Below the pieces are notes generated by a model. It was not told where the DNA came from, searched no databases, and saw only the letters and a list, made by a program, of their open reading frames with translations. Of a stretch of DNA of 63,911 nt, positions 6,895 through 32,751 are shown in pieces. This DNA is from a virus (Duplodnaviria; Caudoviricetes). A program made the translations under genes and the position numbers. Each line of letters starts with the position of its first letter. The stretch's first letter is position 1. Location of the stretch: the IMG/VR virus record IMGVR_UViG_3300021437_000017, positions 1 through 63,911 of that record, one strand, 5' to 3'.

Positions 6895-6969
6895 CGCGGA
6901 GTGGCGCAGCAGCAGCGCGGGTGGCTCATAACCATCAGGTCACGAGTGCAATTCTCGTCTCCGCAACCA
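6895..6969 (+). tRNA. tRNA-Met (CAT), initiator-like
   Basis: Cloverleaf CGCGGAG/CTCCGCA with C1:A72 mismatch, D stem GCGC/GCGC, anticodon loop CTCATAA, T stem ACGAG/CTCGT, encoded ACCA end. Confidence 0.88.
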
Positions 6970-18751: not shown

Positions 18752-21187
18752 ATGGCTATCCCCAATCAGACAGACCAATTCGGCAATCCGGTAGACCAGT
18801 ATGGAAATCCAATCGGGGACACATATGATGAATTCGGTCAAGCATTAGACAAAAATGGTAATCCTATTGGCACTATTGCATCGCAAAGCGCCCTTGCTGG
18901 GGATACGTGGTTTACCGATCCCTCTTTGTGGGGAAACTACGGAAAGAATTGGAGAGCACTTTCTCCTGACGTGCAGCAGATGATTCTCGGATCAGGCACG
19001 GCCTCGACCGGCAACGGGCCGATCACGGTAGGCGAGTTCGCGCCGGGTGGGTGGGGCGACAAATACCTTCAGGAAGGCATTCAGCAAGGGCTACAAGGGG
19101 CGCAACTCGCGCAATATATCCAAGGCAAGCTCGGCGGCGTGCAGGGGCTTATAGCGGCTTCCAACGCGGCCAATGACAACGTAAATATGCTCAATGGCGC
19201 TCCCGCCGCCTGGCTCGCTACGGCTGGGCTTATGGGCGGCTTGGCGAGCGGCCTAATTCCTACGCCCGGAGTGACTGGTGGTGCAACGACCGGAGGACTT
19301 GGTAGCACTGTTGATTTTACGGAGGGGCAATTGGCGCAACAAGCGCTTTATAACTCTCCTGTAACGGTAGGCACCACAACCTACGCAAATACCATAGAAG
19401 CGCTAAAAGCTGGCGTTGATCCAACTGCTCTTGGGCTTTCAACGAATGCGAGCGGAGCCGGTGCGATGGTCGGCGGAACCCCGGTATCAAACTTGGCCAC
19501 GACCGCTGGAACGAACGCAGTTGGAACTGCGGCAGGTAATGCTGCTACTGGCGCGAGTGGGGCAACCGGCGCAACGGGGGGCGCTAGTGGGGCGCTCGGG
19601 ACTGGTGCCGCCGCAGCAGGAACAGCAGCGGCAGGCGGCGCTGCGGCCGGTATCGGAGGAACAGGGCTTACAGCGGGAGACATAATCAAGGCAGGAACTG
19701 GGCTGGCGGGTATCGCGCTCGCGGCTGGCGGGGGTGGCACGACGAGCGGAGCAAATACAGCGGCAGACAACGCGGCTAATGCCGCCGCCGCCGCGCAGAC
19801 CACGCTTGCGAACATCTCGCAGGACCAGTGGAACTACTACAAGCAGAATTACCAGCCTCTTGAGTCGAATCTCATCAATCAGGCGATGACTGCCGGCAGT
19901 CCTGACGAGTTCGCCAGAGCGCGAGGCGCGGCGAGTGCCGACGTGACAGGCGCATTTGATACGGCGCGGAAGAGCACGTTGAACCGGATGCAGAGTTACG
20001 GCATCAATCCGGGTTCTCCTGCCTATCAGTCTATGGGCGCAAGCACGGACCTCGCCGAAGGTGCAACCAGGGCCGGAGCGCTGACCGCCGCCGACAATGC
20101 GACGCGCAATCTGGCCTACTCTAAGGCGCTGGATGTGGCGGGGATTGGTCGCAACATTCCAGCTCAGTCAGCAGCGAGTTCGGCCAATGCCGCCAATGCC
20201 GCCACGAACGCCGCGCAGGTGGCGAATACCCGTGGCCAGACAGCGTTTCTACAGAATCAGACGAACAACGCGAACATCGGGTATGGCTTAAACAGCATTG
20301 GGAACGCCGCTGCCAAGTGGTTCGGCACACCAACACCCGTTTACAATTCTTCCTCGTCGCTGACGCCCGGTTCTGTCAATACCGCAGGTGGCAACACTGA
20401 CTGGTTCGCTGGCGCCGAGGGTGGAAAGGTAACTCCGCGCGGTTTCCAACGAGCGGGGCTCGAAGTTGCGCCGTGGGGCATTGATCTACGCACCGGTAGG
20501 CCAGCAACAACCGCGCCGGAAGGATCGAATGTCGTCGAGACGCGGCCAGCAGTCGGGCCGTCACATCCTACGCACGGCAATGGCGGCAGTATTGGAACAC
20601 GCAACGAGGGCGTCTATCCCGAGAAGCGGTTTGCGGATGGTGGAACGGTCATCGACGCGCAGCAAACTGCGCCGGGGGAATACGACGCGACGGCACTTCA
20701 TTCTGTTCTGATGAAACGTGGGCTTAATCCTCGCATGGCGCACGCGGCAACTCGACATATAACGCCTCACATGCGCCACTTCGCTGGTGGTGGTGGCGTA
20801 GGCCGGCAAGGGATTGGGCTGGACGAAAGCGACATGGGAATGCCGAACTCGGTATCGACGACAGCGCAACCTGTGAATGGGGTTGGAACGGAAGAGCCGC
20901 AAGCGTCTAATGGTCGCGTTGAAGGACCGGGAAGCGGAACGTCAGACAGTGTGCCGGCCGTTATTGATGGACAGCAAGCTGCCAGATTGAGTGATGGCGA
21001 GTTCATTATGTCAGAGCCGGTTTCTCGGATGACTGGTGAGGAAATTTTGATGGCACTGAATGAGGCTGGATTAAAAAAGCGCGGGATCGAGCCCAAAACG
21101 TCAAATGAAGTTCCGGTTGATGCCGGAATGAGAGCCTATCGCAATGGCGGCAGAATTAGCCGTTTCGCTTGCGGGGGGTTATTCTGA
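18752..21187 (+). CDS. Internal virion/ejection protein 1
   Basis: Gly/Ala-rich; MQSYGINPGS; GPGSGTSDSVPA...LSDGEFI; repeated [FY]xxGG motifs. Confidence 0.7.
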   Translation: MAIPNQTDQFGNPVDQYGNPIGDTYDEFGQALDKNGNPIGTIASQSALAGDTWFTDPSLWGNYGKNWRALSPDVQQMILGSGTASTGNGPITVGEFAPGGWGDKYLQEGIQQGLQGAQLAQYIQGKLGGVQGLIAASNAANDNVNMLNGAPAAWLATAGLMGGLASGLIPTPGVTGGATTGGLGSTVDFTEGQLAQQALYNSPVTVGTTTYANTIEALKAGVDPTALGLSTNASGAGAMVGGTPVSNLATTAGTNAVGTAAGNAATGASGATGATGGASGALGTGAAAAGTAAAGGAAAGIGGTGLTAGDIIKAGTGLAGIALAAGGGGTTSGANTAADNAANAAAAAQTTLANISQDQWNYYKQNYQPLESNLINQAMTAGSPDEFARARGAASADVTGAFDTARKSTLNRMQSYGINPGSPAYQSMGASTDLAEGATRAGALTAADNATRNLAYSKALDVAGIGRNIPAQSAASSANAANAATNAAQVANTRGQTAFLQNQTNNANIGYGLNSIGNAAAKWFGTPTPVYNSSSSLTPGSVNTAGGNTDWFAGAEGGKVTPRGFQRAGLEVAPWGIDLRTGRPATTAPEGSNVVETRPAVGPSHPTHGNGGSIGTRNEGVYPEKRFADGGTVIDAQQTAPGEYDATALHSVLMKRGLNPRMAHAATRHITPHMRHFAGGGGVGRQGIGLDESDMGMPNSVSTTAQPVNGVGTEEPQASNGRVEGPGSGTSDSVPAVIDGQQAARLSDGEFIMSEPVSRMTGEEILMALNEAGLKKRGIEPKTSNEVPVDAGMRAYRNGGRISRFACGGLF

Positions 21188-21352
21188 AATGCGGTTCAAT
21201 ATCTTGAACAACTTAACCGAACCCTCCGGGATTTTTTGCACACCGGACTCCCATCGAGCGAACGTACGGGATGACACCTCGACCTGTCGTGCCGCTTGCG
21301 ACAACGATAGGCCGAGGGACTTACGGAGTTTTTTTAATTCAAAACCGACCAT
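21179..21352 (-). CDS. XRE/HTH_3 transcriptional regulator, 57 aa (not in ORF track)
   Basis: Manual translation MVGFELKKLRKSLGLSLSQAARQVEVSSRTFARWESGVQKIPEGSVKLFKILNRISE*. Confidence 0.85.
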   Translation of the reverse strand: MVGFELKKLRKSLGLSLSQAARQVEVSSRTFARWESGVQKIPEGSVKLFKILNRISE

Positions 21353-21505
21353 GCCTTACCTTTGCACGCCACGGCAAGCCTCTGCCCACACTATCCTGCC
21401 AGACCGCGCCGCTGCGGACCTGATCTGGCCCCACCTCGCCATACATTACCCCGCCGAATCTTGCCACGCCCCTGCGCGCCCAACCCAGCCGTTCCGAGCC
21501 TTGCC
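21346..21505 (-). ncRNA. GGY-NN pentamer tract B (32 units), putative guide RNA
   Basis: 32 consecutive in-register 5-mers, 21 with exact GGY; variable NN. Confidence 0.8.
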
Positions 21506-21526
21506 GAAATTGGCTTTCCCCATCAC

Positions 21527-21548
21527 AACGCCCTCCTGCGAGGGCGCT
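21527..21548 (-). other. Hairpin separating the two pentamer tracts
   Basis: AGCGCCCTC-GCAG-GAGGGCGTT on - strand. Confidence 0.75.
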
Positions 21549-21558
21549 GGAATTGCGA

Positions 21559-21690
21559 TTGCCTTGCCAAACAACTCCATTCCTCACCGAACCTCACCAT
21601 TGCCAGCCCCACAACACCGCTCCATACCCGGCCGCTGCAAACCTATGCCTTGGCAAACCGCGCCGAACCAACGCCCATTCAAACCACTCC
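21559..21690 (-). ncRNA. GGY-NN pentamer tract A (26 units), putative guide RNA
   Basis: Begins 5 nt after the stop of the Cas7-like gene; 16 of 26 units exact GGY; two 6-nt units. Confidence 0.78.
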
Positions 21691-21695
21691 ACATT

Positions 21696-22319
21696 TTATT
21701 GCGGAATAATCTCAAATTTAGTGATATTGAATCTGCCGTAAGTTGGTCTGAAATCACCGATACCAACCAAGCGTCCGGCCATGCTGATAACCTCGTTAAG
21801 AAACGAGGCGTCGATGTATTCCGGCGTCAAAACTTGCAACACGAATTCTGCGTTCCAGCCTGCCTTCATAGCGGGCCGAGTGCGGTTGATTCCATTGCGC
21901 TGGATCATGACGCGGCGGGTGTCGAGAAAATCCCACGTCGGTTTTCCGAGCGATCCGAGTTGCGTAATCGACACGACGCCGGCTTTGAACAGATCCATCG
22001 CGCTCTTGCGTGGGCTGCGCGGGTCTTGGCGAAATTTTGCCGCATGGATTATCGACTGCCGCAAATACTCTCCGGGGACGCAAAGCTCGCCGACATCATT
22101 GCGCCATACATAACTTTCGATGTCGTCGATTTTCTTCGCCTTGGAGTTCTTCGCAGCGGCGGATTTTGTCGCAACGCTTTCGCAGTTCCATCGGTGGAAA
22201 AGCATGTCGGAGGAACCTTCGAGGCATACTTCTACAGCATATGGAATGGACGCATCAATCGCGTTCTTACCCCCATTAGTTTTGTTGTCGTCAACAACCT
22301 TGAGTGCAGCTTTAGTCAT
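21696..22319 (-). CDS. Stand-alone Cas7/RAMP-like protein, 207 aa (VIPR-like effector)
   Basis: AAGGAG RBS and ATG at 22319; RAMP-like segments VEVCLEGSSDMLFH, LCVPGEYLRQSIIHAAK and C-terminal Gly loop AGRLVGIGDFRPTYGRF. Confidence 0.75.
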   Translation of the reverse strand: MTKAALKVVDDNKTNGGKNAIDASIPYAVEVCLEGSSDMLFHRWNCESVATKSAAAKNSKAKKIDDIESYVWRNDVGELCVPGEYLRQSIIHAAKFRQDPRSPRKSAMDLFKAGVVSITQLGSLGKPTWDFLDTRRVMIQRNGINRTRPAMKAGWNAEFVLQVLTPEYIDASFLNEVISMAGRLVGIGDFRPTYGRFNITKFEIIPQ

Positions 22320-22368
22320 TTGAAGCTCCTTGCCAAAATGCCACGGCGAATGCCACGGCTCATTACTA

Positions 22369-22397
22369 AGGCTATGCCAATTTGGCATACCTGTCAA
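22369..22397 (-). promoter_or_regulatory. Sigma70-type promoter with embedded palindromic operator for the Cas7-like cassette
   Basis: TTGACA-17 nt-TAGCCT; palindrome TATGCCAA-N-TTGGCATA at 22373-22389. Confidence 0.75.
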
Positions 22398-22410
22398 TAG
22401 GGAAATAATC

Positions 22411-24039: not shown

Positions 24040-27000
24040 ATGGCTGACTTTACTCCAGTGAACTGGGAGGACGTATCTCCCGGCATAGGAATTACTTCAG
24101 AACAAAAAGGCGCGATGGCGGATAAGATCCTTGCCGAACAAAATCGCGGGTCACAAATTGCCGGAGAATTGAAATCAGCAAGACCCGAGTTTACCCCGAT
24201 GGATTGGGGAAGCAGAATGCCTGGGCTTGGCCAGAAGATTGAACCATTGGTTGCTCCGAAGGAAAATAGAATCAAGGACACCGTTTCAGAACTCGGTCGC
24301 TCCATCTGGGAAGGATTGACCGTTCATACTCCCGCATCGGTTGCGGCAGCGTATCAGGGAATGGATGTTTCAGACGAAGGCATATCTGGGTTCCTGATCG
24401 ACCGTTCAAAGGCACTACAGCAGCAACGCGCTGCCGAGCCGGGTGGCGATCGTCCTTCGGCTATTCCAGGTATCAAAATGCAGGATGTGCGGGATCTCGG
24501 GCAAAACCTTGGGTTCTCGCTTACCGCGATGGGGGCCGGTCTTGCCGCCGGTATCCCGGCAAGCGTGGTTGGTTCTCTCGCTACGCCTGCGGCAGGAGCA
24601 GTTGCTGGCTACGGTGCTGGCATGGCAGCGGCCGGCAAGGTCGGTTACAACATGGATGTGAACCAAGTCACCCGCCAGTTGAAGGATGCCGCGGACGAGG
24701 AAAGCCAACGGGTAAACGGCAGGCCGCAGACCCCGGAAGAATGGCAGTCAAAACTCTCTGAAATGAAGGGGGAGATTCAGAAGCACGGTCTTTATGAGGC
24801 CATTCCTGAAGCTCTTGGGAGCGGCGCAGGGTTTGCAATCCTGACTACCGCGGCCAAGGTATTCGGAAAAGGCGTGGTTGCTCGGTTTGCTTCCAAACTT
24901 GGCGCTCTCTATGGCGAGGAAATGCTGACAGAGACCGTCACCCAAATGGGCCAGCAGAACGCCGAAACGCGCATGGGACTACACCGCGGCGAGAAAGAGC
25001 GATCATTTACCAGTCCAGAAGACTGGCTGAAATCAGCCAAAGAAGTGGCACCGCAGATATTTCTGCTGACGACATTGACGGCTGGCGCTGGCAAGGCTAT
25101 TCAAATGGCACACCAAGCTGGCCAGCCAAGCGCTCCAAACGCTCCAGAAACGCCACCACTGCCAACAGGACAACCTACTCCACCGGCAGCCGCTGCGCCT
25201 GCCGTAGCCCCACCTATGCAGCCTACTCCGGTCATATCACCTGATATGCCCGGACAGTTGGGTTCCGTTGGGCCGATACCAGAAGGCCAAGCCATTGCCG
25301 AAGGCTACTCAATTCCGAACCCGCCTGGCTACCAAATCCCGAGCATAGACTTCGCCCTGACTGGCATCGACTTAGCAAGATCTGACGCTCAAAAGCTGAA
25401 GGCCGGTCAAGACCTTCCTGCCGGCGATCCAATCCGTCTGCGTAACGCCACGCTGGTATCCGTCTATGGTGAAAATGCTGCGGTGCGGCACGTAATCGAG
25501 CAGCCAGATCGGTTCGCCGCGATTGGCGATGCGATGTTCATGGTTGCGCCGACCGTCGAGCGCGTACGCGGTGCCATTGGTGCCAAGGCCGAGGGCTTGG
25601 ACATCACGCCGGACATTCTCGGCGCGATCGACGAATTTGCCAAGATGAAGGAAAACGGTCATACCTTGGGTCAGGCGATGGCGCATTCAGTTGCCCATGA
25701 CATCAGCTACGAGGGTCAGCAACTGATGGCCTTCCTTGACGAGCACCAGAACGACCCGCAGAAAATAGCCCAGTTCATCGAAAATTATCTGCACGAGGTC
25801 GAGATGGCGTCAGGGGTGCCATCTCAAGTCCGTGGCCGCGCCTTCGACATCATCCAAGAGCGCAATGCCGCCAAGCAGAAAGAACTTGAGAAGCTCCGTG
25901 CCGAGGCCGAGGCGAAAGCTGCCCGCCAGAAAGAAAGCGAAGTCGGCCGCATGGGCAATCAAGCAGCGACCGAGGTCAAGGTCAAGCAATCAAACGAGCG
26001 CGAAAAGGCAACCTTGCAAGGTGCCGAAACCGCGCTCGCGGCAGCCTTCAAGAACGCGAAATCTCTAAAACGGAAAGGGAAGCCCAATGCAAAGCCGAGT
26101 CCCGAAGGTAATGGCGGATTACCGCCAGCAACGCCAAGCAATCCTCAAGGAGGGGCTGGACAAGGTGAACCAGTTGCGGGGCGACGCTCGGGGCCAGTAC
26201 CCCAGCCTAATCAGGCTGCTGCTCAAGTCAACGCACAACCAGTTCGTGAGACACGCAATCGGCAAGGCGCTGGCGAAAAGCCGGTAAATCGCGCAGCGGC
26301 AATTCTTGCGGAACTCAAACCATTAGACCAAGCAGCCCACGAGGCCGCGACGAGTCCTCTCAACAATGTTGCGGCTCCTACGCCAAGTCAGATTGAGGCT
26401 GGCAACTATAAGAAAGGTGCGGTTCGCGTCGGCGGTCTCGAAATCTCGATCGAGAATCCTGCCGGCTCGAAAAGACGCCCAGAGTGGCCGGCACTCAAAT
26501 CGCATTATGGTTACGTCAAAGGAGTCTTGGCCCGATCCCCAGACAAGGAACATACCGACGTTTTCGTGAAGCCCGGAACCTCGGAAGATTATAACGGTCC
26601 GGTATTCGTCGTTGATCAGAACCGCGCCAACGGGCGTTTCGACGAATCGAAGACAATGATTGGCTGGTCAACTGCCGCCGAGGCCCGCGCAGCGTATCTT
26701 GAAAACTATACCAAAGGATTCGAGTCCCGTATCCGCAGCATTACCGAATTGTCGATGGATGAATACAAAGCAAAATTGCGGGACGCGAGCGCATTTCTGA
26801 AACCACAAGCGGCCCCAAAGCGTCCCAACCGTGGTAGAGCAATGGCAGAGGAGCGCAAGAAAGCCGCGCAGGCCAAGCCAGAAAGCCACTTGTTTGCCGC
26901 CATCAAGGAGATGGGCGGAATCGCATCAAGTCTCATGCGCGATCTGACCGGAGAATCGAACGCGGTCGGCAAGAAGGGCGTTCGCAGCGATATCTTCAGG

Positions 27001-30000
27001 AGGCGCGGGGCGTTGACTAAATACGCGACTGAGGATTTGAGCGATATCGCAAGGTTGCTGAAAGACCGTGGCTACACGATAGATACGGATACCGTGGATG
27101 GCGGCGCGCAGCAAGTTCGCGACATGATTGCCGACGAGATGGCCAATCCCGGAACTCACCGTTCCGCCTTTGATGAACAGGCGGTATTCGACCAATTGAG
27201 CCGTGAACGCAAGGCCGCTGAGAAGGCAGAGGCGGAGGCTGCGACGGCCTTGGCTGGACCAGCCCCTTCTGGTTGGAATACAATGACTGAGGAGCAACAA
27301 AATGCGGAACTCGATTCCCTCTTTGGCGAACCTGCCAAAGCACCTGAAACCGCTCGCGCGCCAGTTGATCAAGGCGAAGTGGGACAAGGAAAGCCAGCCC
27401 TCGAACTCACCGGCCAGACCGCCGACGAAGCCCGCGCCGAAGCAGAGCGCGTAGCCGCAATAGACAAACGGGAAGCGGCTGACAAAGCCGCTCTTGCCGC
27501 AGAAGAAACGCGGAAGGCCAATCAGGCCGAAACTGATCGGCGCAAAGCCGAAGTCCTTGCCGAGCGCGAAGCCGCGAAGAAAGCGGAAATCGAGAAAGCT
27601 CGCGTTGAATTTGCGCTAGGTCAGGAAGCTCCGAAGCCGGTAGTTAAGAAAGTGACGACGGACGAGGCGGCCGGGCAGGGAGATTTGCTAGCGTCAGTCA
27701 AGATTGCCAGCGGAACAAACCTAGCTCCCGATCTGTCCGCTTCAGTCGAATCCGCGCTAACCGACGCCGATAAGGCCGAAGCCGCCCGCGAACTTGGTGA
27801 AAAAGAATGGTCACCGTCCGCGTCCAAGAAGTTCCTGCAAGGCTATGCCGAATGGTTGCAACAAGGCGCAAAGAATGTCGCCACCACTCTCGGCAAGCTG
27901 TTCCAGAAGGTCTACGAGGCTACGCGCAACGGGTTGCTGTCGATTGCTGTCGCCATGAATTTCAACGTGGCGCAGCCGATCATGCCGGTGATGGTCAAGC
28001 CGACTCAGCAAACGCTCACTGAAATCAGAGAGAAGCCGCGCGCTGATTTCAAGGGCGTTTCAGCTTCCGCTGACGCGCACATTACCGCTGACTGGATGGT
28101 GCGGAATGGCTTGACCAAGGGCGGTCCGTTCTTGCTGGCCGACAAGCTTAATGGTGTAATGTATGCCTTTGACGGCGACGGGGCGCTGATCGCAAAATCC
28201 CCGGCGCTGTTCGGTGCCTCGAAGGGCGATATCCTAACCGCAGAACAGGCCGCGAAGCCAATCGAACAGACGACCCAAGCCGACAAGATTACGCCGGCCG
28301 GAATATACCCGGCACAAATCAAATCCGGCGAGTACGGAAACAGCCTTTATTTCGCTGACTATGGTGCAACACAGCTTGCCGTGCATCGCGTCTACCTCGG
28401 GACCCCATCTGAGCAGCGGATGCAACGCCTGCAATCGGAAAACCCGAACGACAACCGTATATCCTACGGCTGTATCAATGCGCTGCCGGAATTTATCGAC
28501 AACGTAATCATTCCTAACTTTGCCGGCAAATCGCAGGTCGTCATCCTGCCGGATTCGACCAGCGCGGAATCATACTTCGGCATTAACGACAACGCATTCG
28601 AGACAACTACCACCACGATCACGAGCGACACGCACAGCGCAACGGCGGTATCGTGGGGTGGCGACAAGTATGCTATCCGTGACGAACGTCAAGCCGAACC
28701 TAGCAGAGCCACTACGCGCAGGCGCAAAGGCGAAATCGACAAGGGCGTGGCTAGGGAGGCAGCGGTTGGCCAAGGTGATTTGCTGGCACAACCGAAACAA
28801 GCATACAATCCAGACCAACTGGAACTCATCTATGACCACACGCCCACCAGACCCGGCACGACAGATGTTCAGCGACGGCTCGGCATTGCTGCATTACGCG
28901 GACTCTTCGGTGGTGATCGTCGAGCGGGCGCCACGTTACTTGGTTCCGCTTTATGGCGCGATTTCCAAGAACGTGCCGGCGCCGAACTCATCGGGCAACA
29001 AGCCGGAAGCGCCTCAGAGCTTGCCTTAGCTGCGCAGATCCTGCGCGACCCGCGCTTCGAGACGATGCGGGTATTCTTTGTCAAGGCGGGGCAAATCGTT
29101 GGGCATACCGGATGGACTTCGCGCCTGCCGGGTTCCGTAGCGTTTTCCATTGAAACCTCCGCGGTATCGAAACGCGTCAAGGCTGGCGAGACCGGCGTGG
29201 GAGCCAACCTTCGCAGGGCGCTCCTGAAGCACGAAATGGCACAATTAGAAGCAGACGGTTATTACGTCCTGCACAATCATCCGTCCGGACGCGCTATTCC
29301 GAGCCGTGCCGATGAGGAAATGACGATCAGACTGGCGAAAGAAATGCCGGGATTCTTGGGGCATGTGGTCATCGACCACAACGAAGCCGCGGTAATTGAC
29401 AAAAATGGAAAGAGCAACGTCGGGCGCTTCTCAGATTTAGGGTTCCCGCCTCAGACTAAAAGGATGCCAGAGGTTGCGCACGACGTTCTTGGTATGCCAA
29501 TAGTAGGCCCGTCGGGGATCGTGGCCGTTGGCAATATGCTGGAGACCAAGAAGGGCTACGCAACGCTCATAGCCACGAATGCTCAAGGTCAAGTTCAGGC
29601 ATTGGCCGAAGTCCCTGAAACCATGCTGCTCGAAGGCAAAGACCCGATGCAGCGCGGTCGCGCGCTAGTCCGCATTCGAAAGTTCATGAACGGGACCGGC
29701 AGCGCAGGCGGCGCTTTCATAGTTGCTGAGAATCCTGCGCGTTTCGATTGGCTCATCAAGAAAGGTGCCTTGACTGATGCCGTTGACACGAAGCCAGACA
29801 ATGACGGGCATCATGCTACACGCAGCCAATGGGGGGTTCTGCAGCCGCGTCATGTGACTGAATATGGACACGGATCGCGGATGGTGCTGGCAGCGAGGCA
29901 GATGGTATGGAATGAACCCGAAAGAGCCGAGCAACCCAAGCCGGGATACAATATCAACGAAGCGCGTTCCGCCGTAGCCGGAAACTCTCCAATGAATTCA

Positions 30001-32751
30001 GCGCGGCTTTTATTCGATGATCTGACGCGCTCTGACCGCGTGTTGAACAGGGTCATCAGCAAGGTCAACACGCCATTTCATATCGCAGAAACTCATCCAT
30101 CATTTGCTCCGGTCTATCAAGAGGCACAGGACTTCAACCACGACATATCGAGGGTGGCGAATGAAGCCGCTGACCTTGCCCCTGATCTGCTGCCGCGCAT
30201 CGAGAAGTTTTCTGACTTCGCAAAGAAAGCGCCATCGCAAGTGGATATTGATGCGGTTCAATCCGCGCTGAACGAAGGAACTCTGTGGGGTGGCGGCAAT
30301 CCCATGGATGGCAAGGTGTGGACGGATGATGAGTTGCGCACGGGGTCGGCGGTTACGACTTCGACGAACGGTCAATCGGTCAGGATGGCCAACGTCTTTA
30401 CGCCGCTGAACGACAGACAGATCAAGGTCTACCGGCAGGCGCTCGCTTCCGCTGCGCACACGATGGATGAGCACGCCAAGTCGCTAATCTCCCGCATAGC
30501 CAGAACGCACAAGATTACGATCGACAACGGCATGGGCCTTGCTGACGTAGCGCAAGTGGCGAGAGATAAGGCTGATGCGAAGATCGCTGGCCTTACACTC
30601 AGAATGCAGTCGATGAACGACATGGGCGAGCGCGATGAATCTCAGAAGAAAATCGACGAACTCAATGCGTTCAAGGCGTCTGTTTCAGACATCGAGAATA
30701 AGACCAATCGTCTTAATGCCCACGGTTATTTCCCTCTGATGCGTTTCGGGAAATATGCGGTCAACGTCCACCAGATGCGTCCTGACGGAACGCGGGAAGA
30801 ACTGTTCTTCGGGCGATACGAAACGCAGGAAGCTGCAAACATCGCAAGGCGAGAACTCGGAAACGAATATCCACAAGGCATCGTTACCAGCGGCATAATG
30901 AATGACGAAGCCTACAAGATTTTTCAAGGGTTAAATGTCGATGCCTTGCAGCACTTTGCCGAACACATGAAGGATGAACAAGGCAATCCGATGTCCGCCG
31001 ATCCTGTCATGCAGGCATATTTCAGGATGGCGGCAACCGAGCGCAGCGTCATGAAACGCCAGATTCATCGCAAGGGCGTGGCTGGATATTCCAAGGATTT
31101 GTCGCGCGTGTTGGCGCAGTTCACTGTTTCTACCGCTAGAAGCACGTCGAGCAATTATCACGGGGCAGAGATGCTTTCCCGCGTGCAGGATGTTAAGGGC
31201 GGTGACTTGCAAGCCTACGCAACGAGATATGTCCGTTACGTTTCCGACCCGCAGGAAGAATCCCAGATGATGCGGGGATTCCTCGCGAATTATTATATTC
31301 TCGGATCGCTTGCTTTCGGTGCAATCAACATGACGCAGCCGGTTCTCGTGACCGCACCATACCTGTCCAAGTTCACGAACTACGGAAACGGCGTCAGGCA
31401 ACTGGCCAAAGCAGCATACGATTATGCGACAGGGCGCAAGAGGCTTACCAAGGCCGAGGCGATTGCCTACGAGAAAGGCGTCAAGGAAGGCATCATCGCG
31501 CCGCAGGAAATCCATCAGATTAGGGCGGAAGGAGCCGCGTCGATGTTGGGCGACAGCCCGACGTGGAACAAACTGACGAGCGTCATGGAAAGCATGGGGA
31601 TCAAGATTCCGAGCCGCCTCGCCTTCCGCAAGGCAATGTTCCTGTGGGGTTCTATCTACAGTCTTACGGAGCAGTTCAACCGCGGGACGACATTCCTTGC
31701 CGCATACCGAATAGCCGTAGAAAAAAAGATGGATCACCCATACGAATTCGCTCGCGAGGCAGTCGAGGCAACTCAGTTCACCTACAATAAGGCAAACCGG
31801 GTTGAATTGAGCCGCGGCAACATCGGAAGTGTAATTATGACGTTTAAGCAGTTCAATATCAGCTACATTGAACTGGCGAAGCGTCTTTACGACACAGACA
31901 AGAAAGCCTTCGCGGTCATGATGCTCACGCTCATGGTTTTTGCTGGAATGCAGGGCCTCCCATTTGCCGAGGACGCGGAGGATATCATCGACACAATCGG
32001 CCAGTGGCTTGGCTACGGCACGAACAGCAAGAAGGCATTGCGGAAACTGGCAACGGAATATCTTGGCAAGGACATGGCGGAAGTGTTGCTGAATGGCACA
32101 AGCGCGATACCAGGGATGCCGCTCGACGTATCGGCCCGGATGGGGATGCACAACCTGATTCCTGGCTCGGCCATGCTCAAGGCATCCGAGCCTGATAAAA
32201 CACGGGACATCATGGAAATACTAGGGCCGGCCGCGACGCTATTCAAGAACGTCGGGACGGCCACGGAAGGACTCGCCACGGGGCGCCCGAGTGAAACCAA
32301 GGCATTGCTGCCAAGCGCGTTACAGAACCTCGCCAAAGGCGTGGATATGGTCGAGACGGGTGTCTACAGGGATTCCAAAGGCAGGAAGGTGATGGATGCC
32401 AGCGCGGCCGATGCCTTTGTGAAAATGGTCGGATTCCAGCCGGCAGAAGTGGCGCGCGAAACTCGCATCGTGGGCCAGAATCAGCAGGACATCGCCATGC
32501 AGCGTGTCATGGAAGACGCCATTGCGTCGCAGATGGCGCGAGGGTTGATGGAGCGTGACAAGGAAGCTATCGAGGAAGCCAAGCGCAAGATGATTCAATG
32601 GAACACTGACAATCCTGGCCTTAGAGTGGCAATTAATGCCGGGCAGATTGCGAGAAGGATCAGGGAAATCGGTATGTCACGCGAGCAGAGGTTTATAAAG
32701 TCCGCGCCGCGTGAGATTCGGCAAAGTGTCGGTCAGGACATCAGGCAGTGA
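24040..32751 (+). CDS. Large polyvalent internal virion protein (inorganic-pyrophosphatase-like, L,D-transpeptidase-like, JAB/RadC, PLxRFG domains)
   Basis: AGNYKKG...ISIENPAGS...HYGY...DVFV...FDESK (about 26330-26790); AVHRVY...ISYGCIN (about 28060-28570); HNHPSG...S..D (about 29030-29420); GYFPLMRFGKY (about 30724). Confidence 0.85.
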   Translation: MADFTPVNWEDVSPGIGITSEQKGAMADKILAEQNRGSQIAGELKSARPEFTPMDWGSRMPGLGQKIEPLVAPKENRIKDTVSELGRSIWEGLTVHTPASVAAAYQGMDVSDEGISGFLIDRSKALQQQRAAEPGGDRPSAIPGIKMQDVRDLGQNLGFSLTAMGAGLAAGIPASVVGSLATPAAGAVAGYGAGMAAAGKVGYNMDVNQVTRQLKDAADEESQRVNGRPQTPEEWQSKLSEMKGEIQKHGLYEAIPEALGSGAGFAILTTAAKVFGKGVVARFASKLGALYGEEMLTETVTQMGQQNAETRMGLHRGEKERSFTSPEDWLKSAKEVAPQIFLLTTLTAGAGKAIQMAHQAGQPSAPNAPETPPLPTGQPTPPAAAAPAVAPPMQPTPVISPDMPGQLGSVGPIPEGQAIAEGYSIPNPPGYQIPSIDFALTGIDLARSDAQKLKAGQDLPAGDPIRLRNATLVSVYGENAAVRHVIEQPDRFAAIGDAMFMVAPTVERVRGAIGAKAEGLDITPDILGAIDEFAKMKENGHTLGQAMAHSVAHDISYEGQQLMAFLDEHQNDPQKIAQFIENYLHEVEMASGVPSQVRGRAFDIIQERNAAKQKELEKLRAEAEAKAARQKESEVGRMGNQAATEVKVKQSNEREKATLQGAETALAAAFKNAKSLKRKGKPNAKPSPEGNGGLPPATPSNPQGGAGQGEPVAGRRSGPVPQPNQAAAQVNAQPVRETRNRQGAGEKPVNRAAAILAELKPLDQAAHEAATSPLNNVAAPTPSQIEAGNYKKGAVRVGGLEISIENPAGSKRRPEWPALKSHYGYVKGVLARSPDKEHTDVFVKPGTSEDYNGPVFVVDQNRANGRFDESKTMIGWSTAAEARAAYLENYTKGFESRIRSITELSMDEYKAKLRDASAFLKPQAAPKRPNRGRAMAEERKKAAQAKPESHLFAAIKEMGGIASSLMRDLTGESNAVGKKGVRSDIFRRRGALTKYATEDLSDIARLLKDRGYTIDTDTVDGGAQQVRDMIADEMANPGTHRSAFDEQAVFDQLSRERKAAEKAEAEAATALAGPAPSGWNTMTEEQQNAELDSLFGEPAKAPETARAPVDQGEVGQGKPALELTGQTADEARAEAERVAAIDKREAADKAALAAEETRKANQAETDRRKAEVLAEREAAKKAEIEKARVEFALGQEAPKPVVKKVTTDEAAGQGDLLASVKIASGTNLAPDLSASVESALTDADKAEAARELGEKEWSPSASKKFLQGYAEWLQQGAKNVATTLGKLFQKVYEATRNGLLSIAVAMNFNVAQPIMPVMVKPTQQTLTEIREKPRADFKGVSASADAHITADWMVRNGLTKGGPFLLADKLNGVMYAFDGDGALIAKSPALFGASKGDILTAEQAAKPIEQTTQADKITPAGIYPAQIKSGEYGNSLYFADYGATQLAVHRVYLGTPSEQRMQRLQSENPNDNRISYGCINALPEFIDNVIIPNFAGKSQVVILPDSTSAESYFGINDNAFETTTTTITSDTHSATAVSWGGDKYAIRDERQAEPSRATTRRRKGEIDKGVAREAAVGQGDLLAQPKQAYNPDQLELIYDHTPTRPGTTDVQRRLGIAALRGLFGGDRRAGATLLGSALWRDFQERAGAELIGQQAGSASELALAAQILRDPRFETMRVFFVKAGQIVGHTGWTSRLPGSVAFSIETSAVSKRVKAGETGVGANLRRALLKHEMAQLEADGYYVLHNHPSGRAIPSRADEEMTIRLAKEMPGFLGHVVIDHNEAAVIDKNGKSNVGRFSDLGFPPQTKRMPEVAHDVLGMPIVGPSGIVAVGNMLETKKGYATLIATNAQGQVQALAEVPETMLLEGKDPMQRGRALVRIRKFMNGTGSAGGAFIVAENPARFDWLIKKGALTDAVDTKPDNDGHHATRSQWGVLQPRHVTEYGHGSRMVLAARQMVWNEPERAEQPKPGYNINEARSAVAGNSPMNSARLLFDDLTRSDRVLNRVISKVNTPFHIAETHPSFAPVYQEAQDFNHDISRVANEAADLAPDLLPRIEKFSDFAKKAPSQVDIDAVQSALNEGTLWGGGNPMDGKVWTDDELRTGSAVTTSTNGQSVRMANVFTPLNDRQIKVYRQALASAAHTMDEHAKSLISRIARTHKITIDNGMGLADVAQVARDKADAKIAGLTLRMQSMNDMGERDESQKKIDELNAFKASVSDIENKTNRLNAHGYFPLMRFGKYAVNVHQMRPDGTREELFFGRYETQEAANIARRELGNEYPQGIVTSGIMNDEAYKIFQGLNVDALQHFAEHMKDEQGNPMSADPVMQAYFRMAATERSVMKRQIHRKGVAGYSKDLSRVLAQFTVSTARSTSSNYHGAEMLSRVQDVKGGDLQAYATRYVRYVSDPQEESQMMRGFLANYYILGSLAFGAINMTQPVLVTAPYLSKFTNYGNGVRQLAKAAYDYATGRKRLTKAEAIAYEKGVKEGIIAPQEIHQIRAEGAASMLGDSPTWNKLTSVMESMGIKIPSRLAFRKAMFLWGSIYSLTEQFNRGTTFLAAYRIAVEKKMDHPYEFAREAVEATQFTYNKANRVELSRGNIGSVIMTFKQFNISYIELAKRLYDTDKKAFAVMMLTLMVFAGMQGLPFAEDAEDIIDTIGQWLGYGTNSKKALRKLATEYLGKDMAEVLLNGTSAIPGMPLDVSARMGMHNLIPGSAMLKASEPDKTRDIMEILGPAATLFKNVGTATEGLATGRPSETKALLPSALQNLAKGVDMVETGVYRDSKGRKVMDASAADAFVKMVGFQPAEVARETRIVGQNQQDIAMQRVMEDAIASQMARGLMERDKEAIEEAKRKMIQWNTDNPGLRVAINAGQIARRIREIGMSREQRFIKSAPREIRQSVGQDIRQ

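What the first reader, a model, noticed from the sequence alone, without database searches (positions are those of the whole stretch)
21346..21505. Tract B: 32 perfectly phased pentamers giving a decodable gapped guide
Seen: 160 nt with no register slip. NN read 5'->3' on the - strand: AA TC AC TG TG GC GG GT AA TC GG AA AT GA GG CA CA CC GC GC CT AG AG GG GA TT GT GT AA AA AT CG. The NN series is not itself repetitive, unlike a slippage-derived microsatellite. Inference: if every third target base is skipped (NNx), the target is about 96 bp, and the skipped base could fall on codon wobble positions and resist synonymous escape. No TA dinucleotide occurs in this tract, compatible with an in-frame coding target in either direction (weak evidence).
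Basis: partly seen in the sequence, partly recalled or inferred. Interest (0 to 1): 0.82.

Follow-up and report, generated by a model that had tools for sequence, protein, structure and literature searches.

The report
Phage VIPR guide RNA array
The 160-base tract of phased GGY-NN pentamers is the guide-RNA array of a phage VIPR system, a recently described CRISPR-like silencer, and it holds two separate guides: one matches a regulator gene of integrated mobile elements and the other a virion gene of rival phages.

Summary
Positions 21346-21505 (- strand) are 32 in-phase GGYNN pentamers (21 of 32 exact GGY, P about 5e-23), and the NN list is exactly as written. The tract lies 3' of a 207-aa gene whose profile matches the solved SUSP1 Vipr protein (E 1.4e-10). 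Its model matches Cas7-type RAMPs. All 30 related loci carry same-strand GGY/NN tracts. This is therefore a VIPR locus, a kind described in four 2026 preprints.

The gapped NNx reading is supported, but the single 96-bp target is not.
- Units 1-12 match 12 of 12 in AlpA-like genes of 15 bacterial contigs. Two examined contexts have a P4-type integrase nearby. The match stops exactly at unit 12.
- Units 13-28 match up to 15 of 16 in a virion-protein motif in IMG/VR phages. The phage's own adjacent homologue matches only 10 of 16.
- Units 29-32 match nothing and overlap the start codon of a 57-aa HTH gene.

The skipped base is the third codon position in every case. A 2-nt-skip control gave 1 hit against 25. 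RNA processing and silencing are inferred, not shown. Verdict: a new member of a known kind, with decoded natural targets and two guides fused in one register.

The parts
22320..22410 (-). Divergent intergenic region upstream of vipr. It holds a TTGACA hexamer (22397-22392), a 15-nt perfect palindrome (22388-22374), a direct repeat of about 11 nt (22359-22337) and an AAGGAG ribosome-binding site (22331-22326). Candidate promoter/operator.
   Evidence: Read directly. The tandem repeat is listed (22337-22359). The consensus scan called no - strand promoter here, only a + strand site at 22382-22409.
21696..22319 (-). vipr gene: a 207-aa Cas7-like RAMP and homologue of the SUSP1 Vipr protein.
   Evidence: Translation. 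phrog_4652 E 6e-13. No Pfam, NCBIfam or PADLOC family. AlphaFold2 model pLDDT 82.3, pTM 0.76. Foldseek top PDB hits are type VII Cas7, Csm3, Cmr4 and gRAMP, E down to 4e-7. The profile of 16 homologues hits PDB 36pp_D 'SUSP1 Vipr protein', E 1.4e-10.
21645..21690 (-). Short degenerate GGYNN runs (about 4 + 5 units) right after the vipr stop codon. Each is offset by one base from the next run.
   Evidence: Pentamer layout. No target was sought for them.
21559..21643 (-). Tract A2: 17 GGYNN units, a candidate guide. Its target assignment is tentative: the W-I-D-S-D-I-V-F motif of a 214-252-aa phage protein family.
   Evidence: The best match is 11 of 17 units, below the 80% criterion of the preprint.
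21506..21558 (-). Structured element between the tracts: a 10-bp G+C-rich hairpin. Candidate 3' tail of the A2 guide RNA.
   Evidence: minimum free energy -29.7 kcal/mol, z -3.4, 1 of 200 shuffles folds as well. No Rfam family at E up to 1 beyond chance-level rows.
21446..21505 (-). Guide B1: units 1-12 of tract B. NNx matches the K-S-T-W-W-A-G-V-K-S-G-K coding stretch of AlpA-like HTH genes.
   Evidence: 15 exact 12-of-12-unit stretches in genome contigs; all 15 lie in ORFs of 62-89 aa, the skip falls on codon position 3, and unit 13 is never fully matched; 25 IMG/VR stretches, 12 of them this family; one target protein reaches PF05930 Phage_AlpA (21.1 bits, cut-off 21); a P4-type integrase sits in both examined contexts, and a DUF927 protein in L328.
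21366..21445 (-). Guide B2: units 13-28 of tract B. NNx matches the I-D-G-Q-Q-P-A-A-L-S-x-G-E-F-V-V motif of virion proteins of other phages.
   Evidence: 91 IMG/VR stretches with units 14-21. Of these, 23 match at least 80% of the 32 guide bases, all in open frames. Four match 15 of 16 units and 11 match 14 of 16. Unit 23 is mismatched in 12 of the 14 best rows listed, including every 15-of-16 hit.
21346..21365 (-). Units 29-32: in phase, but no target found. They cover the region just upstream of, and the start codon of, the downstream HTH gene (ATG 21352-21350).
   Evidence: units 25-32 gave 38 stretches, none extending as a family. Searches give the overlap with the ORF start.
21179..21352 (-). 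57-aa XRE-type HTH gene. Candidate accessory (vap-like) protein or operon regulator.
   Evidence: translation. HTH_31 33.1 bits (cut-off 27), HTH_3 28 (23), Aca2_YdiL 24.8 (23.8); a related strain's contig differs at every third base across 21224-21266, at the third codon positions of this frame; a homologue at 65% identity in the same position in 1 of 30 related loci (L019).
20963..21010 (+). The phage's own copy of the B2 target motif, in the C-terminal part of the adjacent 811-aa virion protein gene (18752-21187). It has diverged from the guide.
   Evidence: 10 of 16 units and 24 of 32 bases match, which is 75%, below the 80% criterion; target-family proteins align to 20912-21178; phrog_8003 'virion structural protein'.

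Best explanation
The tract is the guide-RNA (vrRNA) array of a phage-encoded VIPR system. The locus is a compact 1.2-kb module on the - strand, set inside the + strand virion gene block of an uncultivated freshwater phage. It holds a promoter region, the vipr gene, the GGY/NN tracts A and B, and a small HTH gene. By homology with the SUSP1 system, Vipr protomers should polymerise on the RNA, one per pentamer. They would bury each GGY and present each NN. The NN bases then pair with a DNA strand that skips every third base, and the bound complex blocks transcription. This mechanism is inferred, not shown here. What is shown here is that tract B holds two guides fused in one register. Units 1-12 read the conserved HTH core of AlpA-like genes; the two contexts examined carry a P4-type integrase, so these are likely satellites or genomic islands. 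Units 13-28 read a conserved motif of a virion protein in other phages. The phage's own adjacent homologue has diverged at 6 of 16 units. In both targets the skipped base is the third codon position and the guide has the sense of the coding strand. The likely role is silencing of competing mobile elements during infection.
For: Family membership:
- A profile of 16 homologues hits PDB 36pp_D 'SUSP1 Vipr protein' at E 1.4e-10. The G-loop D-F-R and the thumb R-P align with SUSP1 D177-W178-R179 and R138, which the structure preprint names as the GGY contacts.
- D, both R and the P are invariant in 16 of 16 sequences.
- The model has pLDDT 82.3, and its best PDB folds are Cas7-type RAMPs.

Gene-tract linkage:
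- 30 of 30 related loci have phased GGY tracts on the gene's strand.
- None of the 108 tracts called in those loci lies on the opposite strand.
- Across 1225 units the five positions read G 96%, G 88%, Y 95%, then near-uniform NN.

Targets:
- B1 has 15 exact 12-of-12-unit stretches in one-genome-per-species bacterial contigs. My own rough chance estimate is about 0.004. All 15 fall in AlpA-like ORFs of 62-89 aa, and the match ends at unit 12.
- For B2, 23 of 91 IMG/VR stretches match at least 80% of the guide bases, all in open frames, and the best match 15 of 16 units.

Controls:
- Windows that straddle the guide boundaries (units 9-16 and 25-32) gave 18 and 38 stretches. None formed a shared gene family extending beyond the searched window.
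- The 2-nt-skip version of units 1-8 gave 1 stretch against 25.
- There is no self-target above shuffles.

Published mechanism and biology of VIPR: results and discussion; sections; abstracts; passages.
Against: No RNA data exist for this phage, so transcription, processing into separate guides and RNP formation are unshown. Tract B has no recognisable 3' tail such as the published type II vrRNAs carry, and it is 32 units long against 9-16 in print. Eleven of its 32 units have a degenerate GGY. No perfect 16-unit B2 target exists in the metagenome collection (0 stretches). The own-gene copy matches 75% of the guide bases, close to the 80% criterion, so self-avoidance is not clear-cut. No accessory gene is conserved across the clade. 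The host is unknown, and the B1 hits spread over Alpha-, Beta-, Gamma- and Zetaproteobacteria. It is therefore not shown that a targeted element lives in this phage's host.
Confidence: 0.85

Rival explanations
1. The whole 32-unit tract is one guide that reads one target of about 96 bp.
For: There is no register slip over 160 nt. In AlpA-family hits a few distal units (28, 31, 32) also match in the same frame.
Against: In 15 of 15 genome hits the match stops at unit 12. Units 13-28 match an unrelated gene family. Units 9-16, which cross the boundary, gave only non-extending hits. Units 29-32 overlap a gene start.
Confidence: 0.04
2. Guide B2 acts on the phage's own adjacent 811-aa virion gene, as timing or dosage control, rather than on rival phages.
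For: The own gene carries the homologous motif about 350 bp away from the guide. It matches 10 of 16 units and 24 of 32 bases.
Against: Other phages match better (up to 15 of 16). The own match is below the preprint's 80% criterion, and in 10-unit windows it equals the shuffled background. The preprint reports no self-targets at 80% or above in its systems.
Confidence: 0.08
3. The tract is not a guide. It is instead a protein-binding scaffold or decoy RNA (TRAP-like triplet-plus-spacer binding), a coding sequence, or structural DNA such as G-quadruplex-prone GG runs.
For: The GGY triplets with 2-nt spacers resemble TRAP binding sites (recalled). ORFs run across the tract on both strands. Decoy vrRNAs exist in satellites (abstract).
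Against: A 5-nt period is incompatible with codon constraint. NN is hypervariable yet decodes to in-frame conserved motifs of two gene families. The adjacent protein is a Vipr homologue.
Confidence: 0.03

Closest known systems
Type II VIPR systems of Escherichia phage SUSP1 and a Pseudomonas fulva prophage (bioRxiv 10.64898/2026.04.26.720920, results, discussion and methods sections read; 10.64898/2026.04.26.720927, two sections read)
   Same: A small RAMP protein with a conserved G-loop and thumb. GGY/NN pentamer RNA beside the gene on the same strand. Targets read as NNx with the skip on the wobble base. Targets are competing mobile elements. No self-target at 80% or above.
   Different: Protein homology is detectable only by profile, over the C-terminal half (E 1.4e-10). 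Tract B is 32 units in one register holding two guides, with no tail between or after them. Published vrRNAs have 9-16 units plus a pseudoknot tail. No accessory gene is conserved across the clade. The VIPR type (I-VII) could not be assigned because the supplements are closed.
SUSP1 VIPR silencing of a satellite's excision recombinase (bioRxiv 10.64898/2026.10.15.759431; abstract and passages read)
   Same: A guide reads a conserved, codon-aligned stretch of a gene tied to excision of an integrated element.
   Different: Here the target is an AlpA-like small HTH gene rather than a serine recombinase. Two examined contexts have a P4-type integrase nearby. The hits span many proteobacterial lineages. 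No experiment has been done.
Cas7 backbone of class 1 CRISPR effectors (type III Csm3/Cmr4, type VII Cas7)
   Same: Fold (Foldseek E 4e-7 to 1e-5, TM about 0.5). One protomer per repeat of the guide, with a thumb that flips bases out periodically.
   Different: No CRISPR repeats, no other cas genes and no PADLOC match. The period is 5 nt with 3 bases buried, instead of 6 nt with 1 flipped. The target is gapped.
Staggered vrRNA arrays (Fig. S18 legend of the first preprint; legend only, figure not held)
   Same: Several guides abut without long spacers. The short runs of tract A are offset by one base, as that legend describes.
   Different: In tract B the two guides abut with no offset at all.

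Membership tests
VIPR system | Vipr protein is a minimal RAMP (RRM core, G-loop, thumb) | tested here: met
   Model pLDDT 82.3. The top PDB folds are Cas7-type RAMPs, 133 matches at E <= 0.001. The glycine-rich loop is near the C-terminus, where D, R, P, G, R and F are invariant in 16 of 16 sequences.
VIPR system | Sequence homology to an experimentally characterised Vipr | tested here: met
   hmmsearch of profile A1 against PDB sequences gave a single hit, 36pp_D 'SUSP1 Vipr protein', E 1.4e-10, profile positions 123-198.
VIPR system | Residues that hold the GGY bases (SUSP1 H17, R138, D177, W178, R179; K33 for the target backbone) | tested here: inconclusive
   R138, D177 and R179 align with invariant R, D and R. 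W178 aligns with F, which is aromatic in 15 of 16 sequences. H17 and K33 lie in the N-terminal half, which the profile match does not cover.
VIPR system | Tandem GGY/NN pentamers next to vipr on its strand, NN hypervariable | tested here: met
   30 of 30 related loci. None of 108 tracts lies on the opposite strand. Composition over 1225 units is.
VIPR system | Each vrRNA has 9-16 repeats followed by a conserved structured 3' tail | tested here: inconclusive
   Target mapping gives guides of 12 and 16 units, which is within range. There is no tail between or after them. Only tract A2 is followed by a hairpin. RNA ends are unknown.
VIPR system | Targets obey the 1-nt skip rule, mostly wobble-aligned | tested here: met
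   The 2-nt-skip control gave 1 stretch against 25. Skips of 0 and 3 were not scanned in the collections.
VIPR system | No self-target at 80% NN match or above | tested here: met
   The best 10-unit self match is 16 of 20, and shuffled guides reach 16-17. The own homologous motif matches 24 of 32 bases, 75%.
VIPR system | Accessory vap gene | tested here: inconclusive
   A 57-aa HTH gene follows the array here and in L019 only, 2 of 31 loci. No neighbour is conserved across the 31 loci.
VIPR system | vrRNA is expressed, binds Vipr, and silences the target | not testable with these tools
   Needs wet-lab work.
CRISPR-Cas | Repeat-spacer array and a cas gene set | tested here: not met
   No CRISPR repeat family at the Rfam gathering score. 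One CRISPR-DR row appears at E 0.56, below its cut-off. No PADLOC family for the protein.

The most novel reading that the evidence does not exclude
In this clade one uninterrupted Vipr filament carries two or more guides in a single register, giving a bivalent silencing particle with no tail or ribozyme to separate them. Its last four pentamers sit on the translation start of the downstream HTH gene, so that Vipr loading on the RNA would shut off translation of the regulator. That would couple guide loading to operon control. Long in-phase tracts (29-43 units) occur in several relatives, and L019 repeats the tract-abuts-HTH arrangement.
Probability: 0.15. Interest if true: 0.7.

Novelty: new member of a known kind. 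Interest (0 to 1): 0.45.

Why it matters
The finding gives an independent, purely computational confirmation of the 1-nt-skip code in a Vipr lineage far from the tested ones. It comes from an uncultivated freshwater phage. It also names natural targets: the HTH core of AlpA-like genes of integrated elements, and a conserved virion-protein motif of rival phages. It shows that a long register-perfect tract can hold more than one guide. That matters for anyone calling vrRNAs by repeat runs or predicting targets from whole tracts. The near-miss with the phage's own gene (75% of guide bases) offers a natural test case for how many mismatched units VIPR tolerates.

Tried and rejected
- My first working idea was a TRAP-like protein-binding RNA. 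I dropped it once the literature and the PDB match identified VIPR.
- blastn of the intergenic region against the phage collection found no match.
- Pfam, NCBIfam and PADLOC gave nothing for the Vipr protein.
- Rfam gave nothing meaningful.
- Guides of 64 related tracts against this window were no better than shuffles at any skip from 0 to 3.
- 79 related tracts against the 312 fetched target loci gave 0 exact 9-unit hits at skip 1, and one unexplained hit at skip 2.
- The full 16-unit B2 pattern found 0 stretches in metagenome contigs.
- The extended A2 pattern found 2 metagenome stretches. They carry the same peptide and match pattern as the IMG/VR hits L257 and L242, at 11 of 17 units.
- A2 units 1-8 gave 5 stretches without extension.
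- The B2 core pattern with up to 3 mismatches, searched in 5 of the 14 assemblies that carry a B1 target, gave only control-level matches. The other 9 were not searched.
- No RNA holder was listed for the region. Contigs of a second freshwater study carry tract B unchanged, so no guide variation could be read.
- PHROGs and Pfam gave no family for the B2 target proteins.

Full report
**1. The observation**

On the - strand, 21505 down to 21346 reads as 32 pentamers in one register. Of the 32 units, 21 are exact GGY, 30 begin with G, and 28 keep at least two of the three GGY positions. With a background GGY frequency of 3.63%, that gives P about 5e-23.

A scan of both strands of the whole window finds phased GGY at only two places, both on the - strand. 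They are this tract and a second one at 21549-21653. The NN series uses 15 different dinucleotides. Tandem Repeats Finder sees no array here. ORFs that cross the tract on either strand cannot explain a 5-nt period.

**2. Surroundings**

The window is a 63,911-base virus record. It carries tail-fibre and internal-virion protein genes and a 2903-aa ORF on the + strand. The tract sits in a 1.2-kb island on the - strand. In transcription order the island holds:
- a 90-nt divergent intergenic region (22410-22320) with a TTGACA hexamer, a 15-nt palindrome and a direct repeat;
- a 207-aa gene (22319-21696);
- short degenerate pentamer runs, then a 17-unit tract A2 (21643-21559);
- a 53-nt element with a 10-bp hairpin;
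- tract B;
- a 57-aa XRE-type HTH gene (21352-21179), whose ATG lies inside pentamers 31-32.

A contig of a related strain differs from the window at every third base across 21224-21266. Those are the third codon positions of that frame, which supports the small gene as real.

**3. The protein**

Pfam, NCBIfam and PADLOC give nothing, and PHROGs gives only phrog_4652 of unknown function. Sixteen homologues align with 54 invariant columns. The AlphaFold2 model (pLDDT 82.3, pTM 0.76) matches Cas7-type RAMPs best: type VII Cas7, Csm3, Cmr4 and gRAMP, with E down to 4e-7.

The profile of the alignment has a single hit among PDB sequences. It is chain 36pp_D, named 'SUSP1 Vipr protein', at E 1.4e-10. 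In that alignment SUSP1 R138 and D177-W178-R179 pair with invariant R and D-F-R here. The structure preprint names those SUSP1 residues as the contacts to the two guanines and the pyrimidine. The N-terminal half is not covered, so H17 and K33 could not be checked.

**4. Linkage of gene and tracts**

The one GenBank relative is phage DSL-LC04, at 68% identity. With the 29 IMG/VR loci, all 30 related loci carry phased GGY tracts on the gene's strand. The tracts lie upstream of the gene, downstream of it, or both. None of the 108 tracts called in these loci lies on the other strand.

Over 79 distinct tracts and 1225 units the five positions read G 96%, G 88%, Y 95%, then near-uniform N and N. Tract lengths run from 6 to 43 units. 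TA is only mildly depleted among NN (56 observed against 78.6 expected). No neighbouring gene is conserved across the 31 loci. The HTH gene recurs only in L019, in the same position.

**5. What is in print**

A full-text search led to four 2026 bioRxiv preprints.
- 10.64898/2026.04.26.720920 describes VIPR systems. I read its results, discussion and five methods sections. These are phage-encoded Vipr RAMPs with vrRNAs of 9-16 GGY/NN repeats and a 3' tail. The NN bases read double-stranded DNA with a 1-nt skip that falls mostly on wobble positions. Targets are competing phages and satellites. The paper defines seven types with varied array architectures.
- 10.64898/2026.04.26.720927 gives the filament and triplex structures. 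I read two of its sections.
- 10.64898/2026.10.15.759431 shows silencing of a satellite recombinase. I read the abstract and passages.
- 10.64898/2026.10.21.760802 recovers 5-nt-period arrays beside Vipr-like folds. I read passages only.

I could therefore not see which type this clade belongs to, or whether it was in their set.

**6. Decoding tract B**

I scanned IMG/VR with eight-unit NNx patterns and scored the flanking units in every hit.

Units 1-8 gave 25 stretches. Twelve of them encode K-S-T-W-W-A-G-V in small ORFs of one family. Seven of the 25 match 11 of the first 12 units.

The 12-unit pattern gave 15 exact stretches in the one-genome-per-species bacterial collection. My own rough chance estimate is about 0.004. 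All 15 lie in ORFs of 62-89 aa of the same family, the skip is on the third codon base, and unit 13 is never fully matched. One family member reaches Pfam Phage_AlpA (21.1 bits against a cut-off of 21). In the two contexts examined, a P4-type integrase lies nearby. In the Methylobacillus locus there is also a 946-aa DUF927 protein.

Units 14-21 gave 91 stretches. Of these, 23 match at least 80% of the 32 bases of units 13-28, all in open frames. Four match 15 of 16 units and 11 match 14 of 16. They encode I-D-G-Q-Q-P-A-A-L-S-x-G-E-F-V-V in proteins of 105 to 692 aa that have no family name.

The same motif sits in the C-terminal part of this phage's own 811-aa virion protein, the gene next to the locus. 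There it matches only 10 of 16 units and 24 of 32 bases.

Units 9-16 and 25-32 gave 18 and 38 stretches. Neither set extends or forms a shared family, so they serve as internal controls. The 2-nt-skip version of units 1-8 gave 1 stretch with no extension.

Tract B is therefore two guides, of 12 and 16 units, joined in one register. Four more pentamers follow and overlap the HTH gene's start.

**7. Tract A2**

At least 110 of them encode (L/M)-W-I-D-S-D-I-V-F in one 214-252-aa protein family. The best match is only 11 of 17 units. That target is tentative.

**8. Mechanism**

Three things are shown here: homology to Vipr, the gene-tract linkage, and in-frame gapped matches to two conserved gene families with the skip on the wobble base. 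Four things are inferred from the preprints: one protomer per pentamer, GGY buried and NN presented, an R-loop triplex on double-stranded DNA, and transcriptional silencing.

The likely role is to hold integrated AlpA-bearing elements silent and to block a virion gene of co-infecting phages, while the phage's own diverged copy escapes.

Several points remain open. It is not known whether the RNA is cut into two guides or acts as one filament. It is not known what replaces the tail. It is not known whether the HTH protein is an accessory factor or an operon regulator acting at the palindrome. The host is also unknown.

**9. Verdict**

This is a real feature and a correct gapped-guide reading. 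It belongs to a kind already published in 2026. It adds decoded natural targets and an in-register two-guide tract.

Noticed in passing
window 21179-21352 (- strand): A 57-aa XRE-type HTH gene (HTH_31 and HTH_3; also Aca2_YdiL just above its cut-off). Its ATG lies inside pentamers 31-32 of tract B. A related strain's contig differs at every third base across it. The same tract-abuts-HTH layout occurs in L019.
   Followed up: partly
window 22337-22397 (- strand): Upstream of vipr there is a TTGACA hexamer, a perfect 15-nt palindrome (22388-22374) and a direct repeat of about 11 nt sharing a TGGCA core. This is a candidate operator set for the HTH protein. The consensus promoter scan called nothing on this strand.
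   Followed up: no
L006 2368-2919 (also L007, L008): In this relative the GGY/NN tracts (6-42 units) are separated by four similar structured elements of 56-61 nt. That is a repeat-and-guide layout unlike the window's. It was not compared with hammerhead or other ribozyme models.
   Followed up: no
L002 2781-2940; L004 420-440; L022 2972-2990: Several relatives end each tract with GGTTT or GGCTT followed by a short T/C-rich run (TTCC in most). In three of the L002 gaps and in L022 a CAAT or CATT motif follows. This may be a short tail or processing signal. The window's tract B lacks it.
   Followed up: no
window 24040-32751 (+ strand): A 2903-aa ORF follows the virion gene block. It was not analysed.
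   Followed up: no
window 21144-22400 (+ strand): A 418-aa ORF runs antisense through the whole VIPR module. Most likely it is a stop-free artefact of the C-rich complement of the tracts and of the vipr gene.
   Followed up: partly
window 21270-21523 and 21597-22161: Short contigs of a second freshwater metagenome from a different study are identical to the window here, including all of tract B. The same phage with the same guides therefore occurs in more than one sample.
   Followed up: partly
relatives' tracts against loci L031-L342: One exact 9-unit match at a 2-nt skip (0 in 20 shuffles), and none at the 1-nt skip. It was not inspected.
   Followed up: no
window 6895-6969 (+ strand): A tRNA-Met gene (anticodon CAT) in the phage genome.
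   Followed up: no
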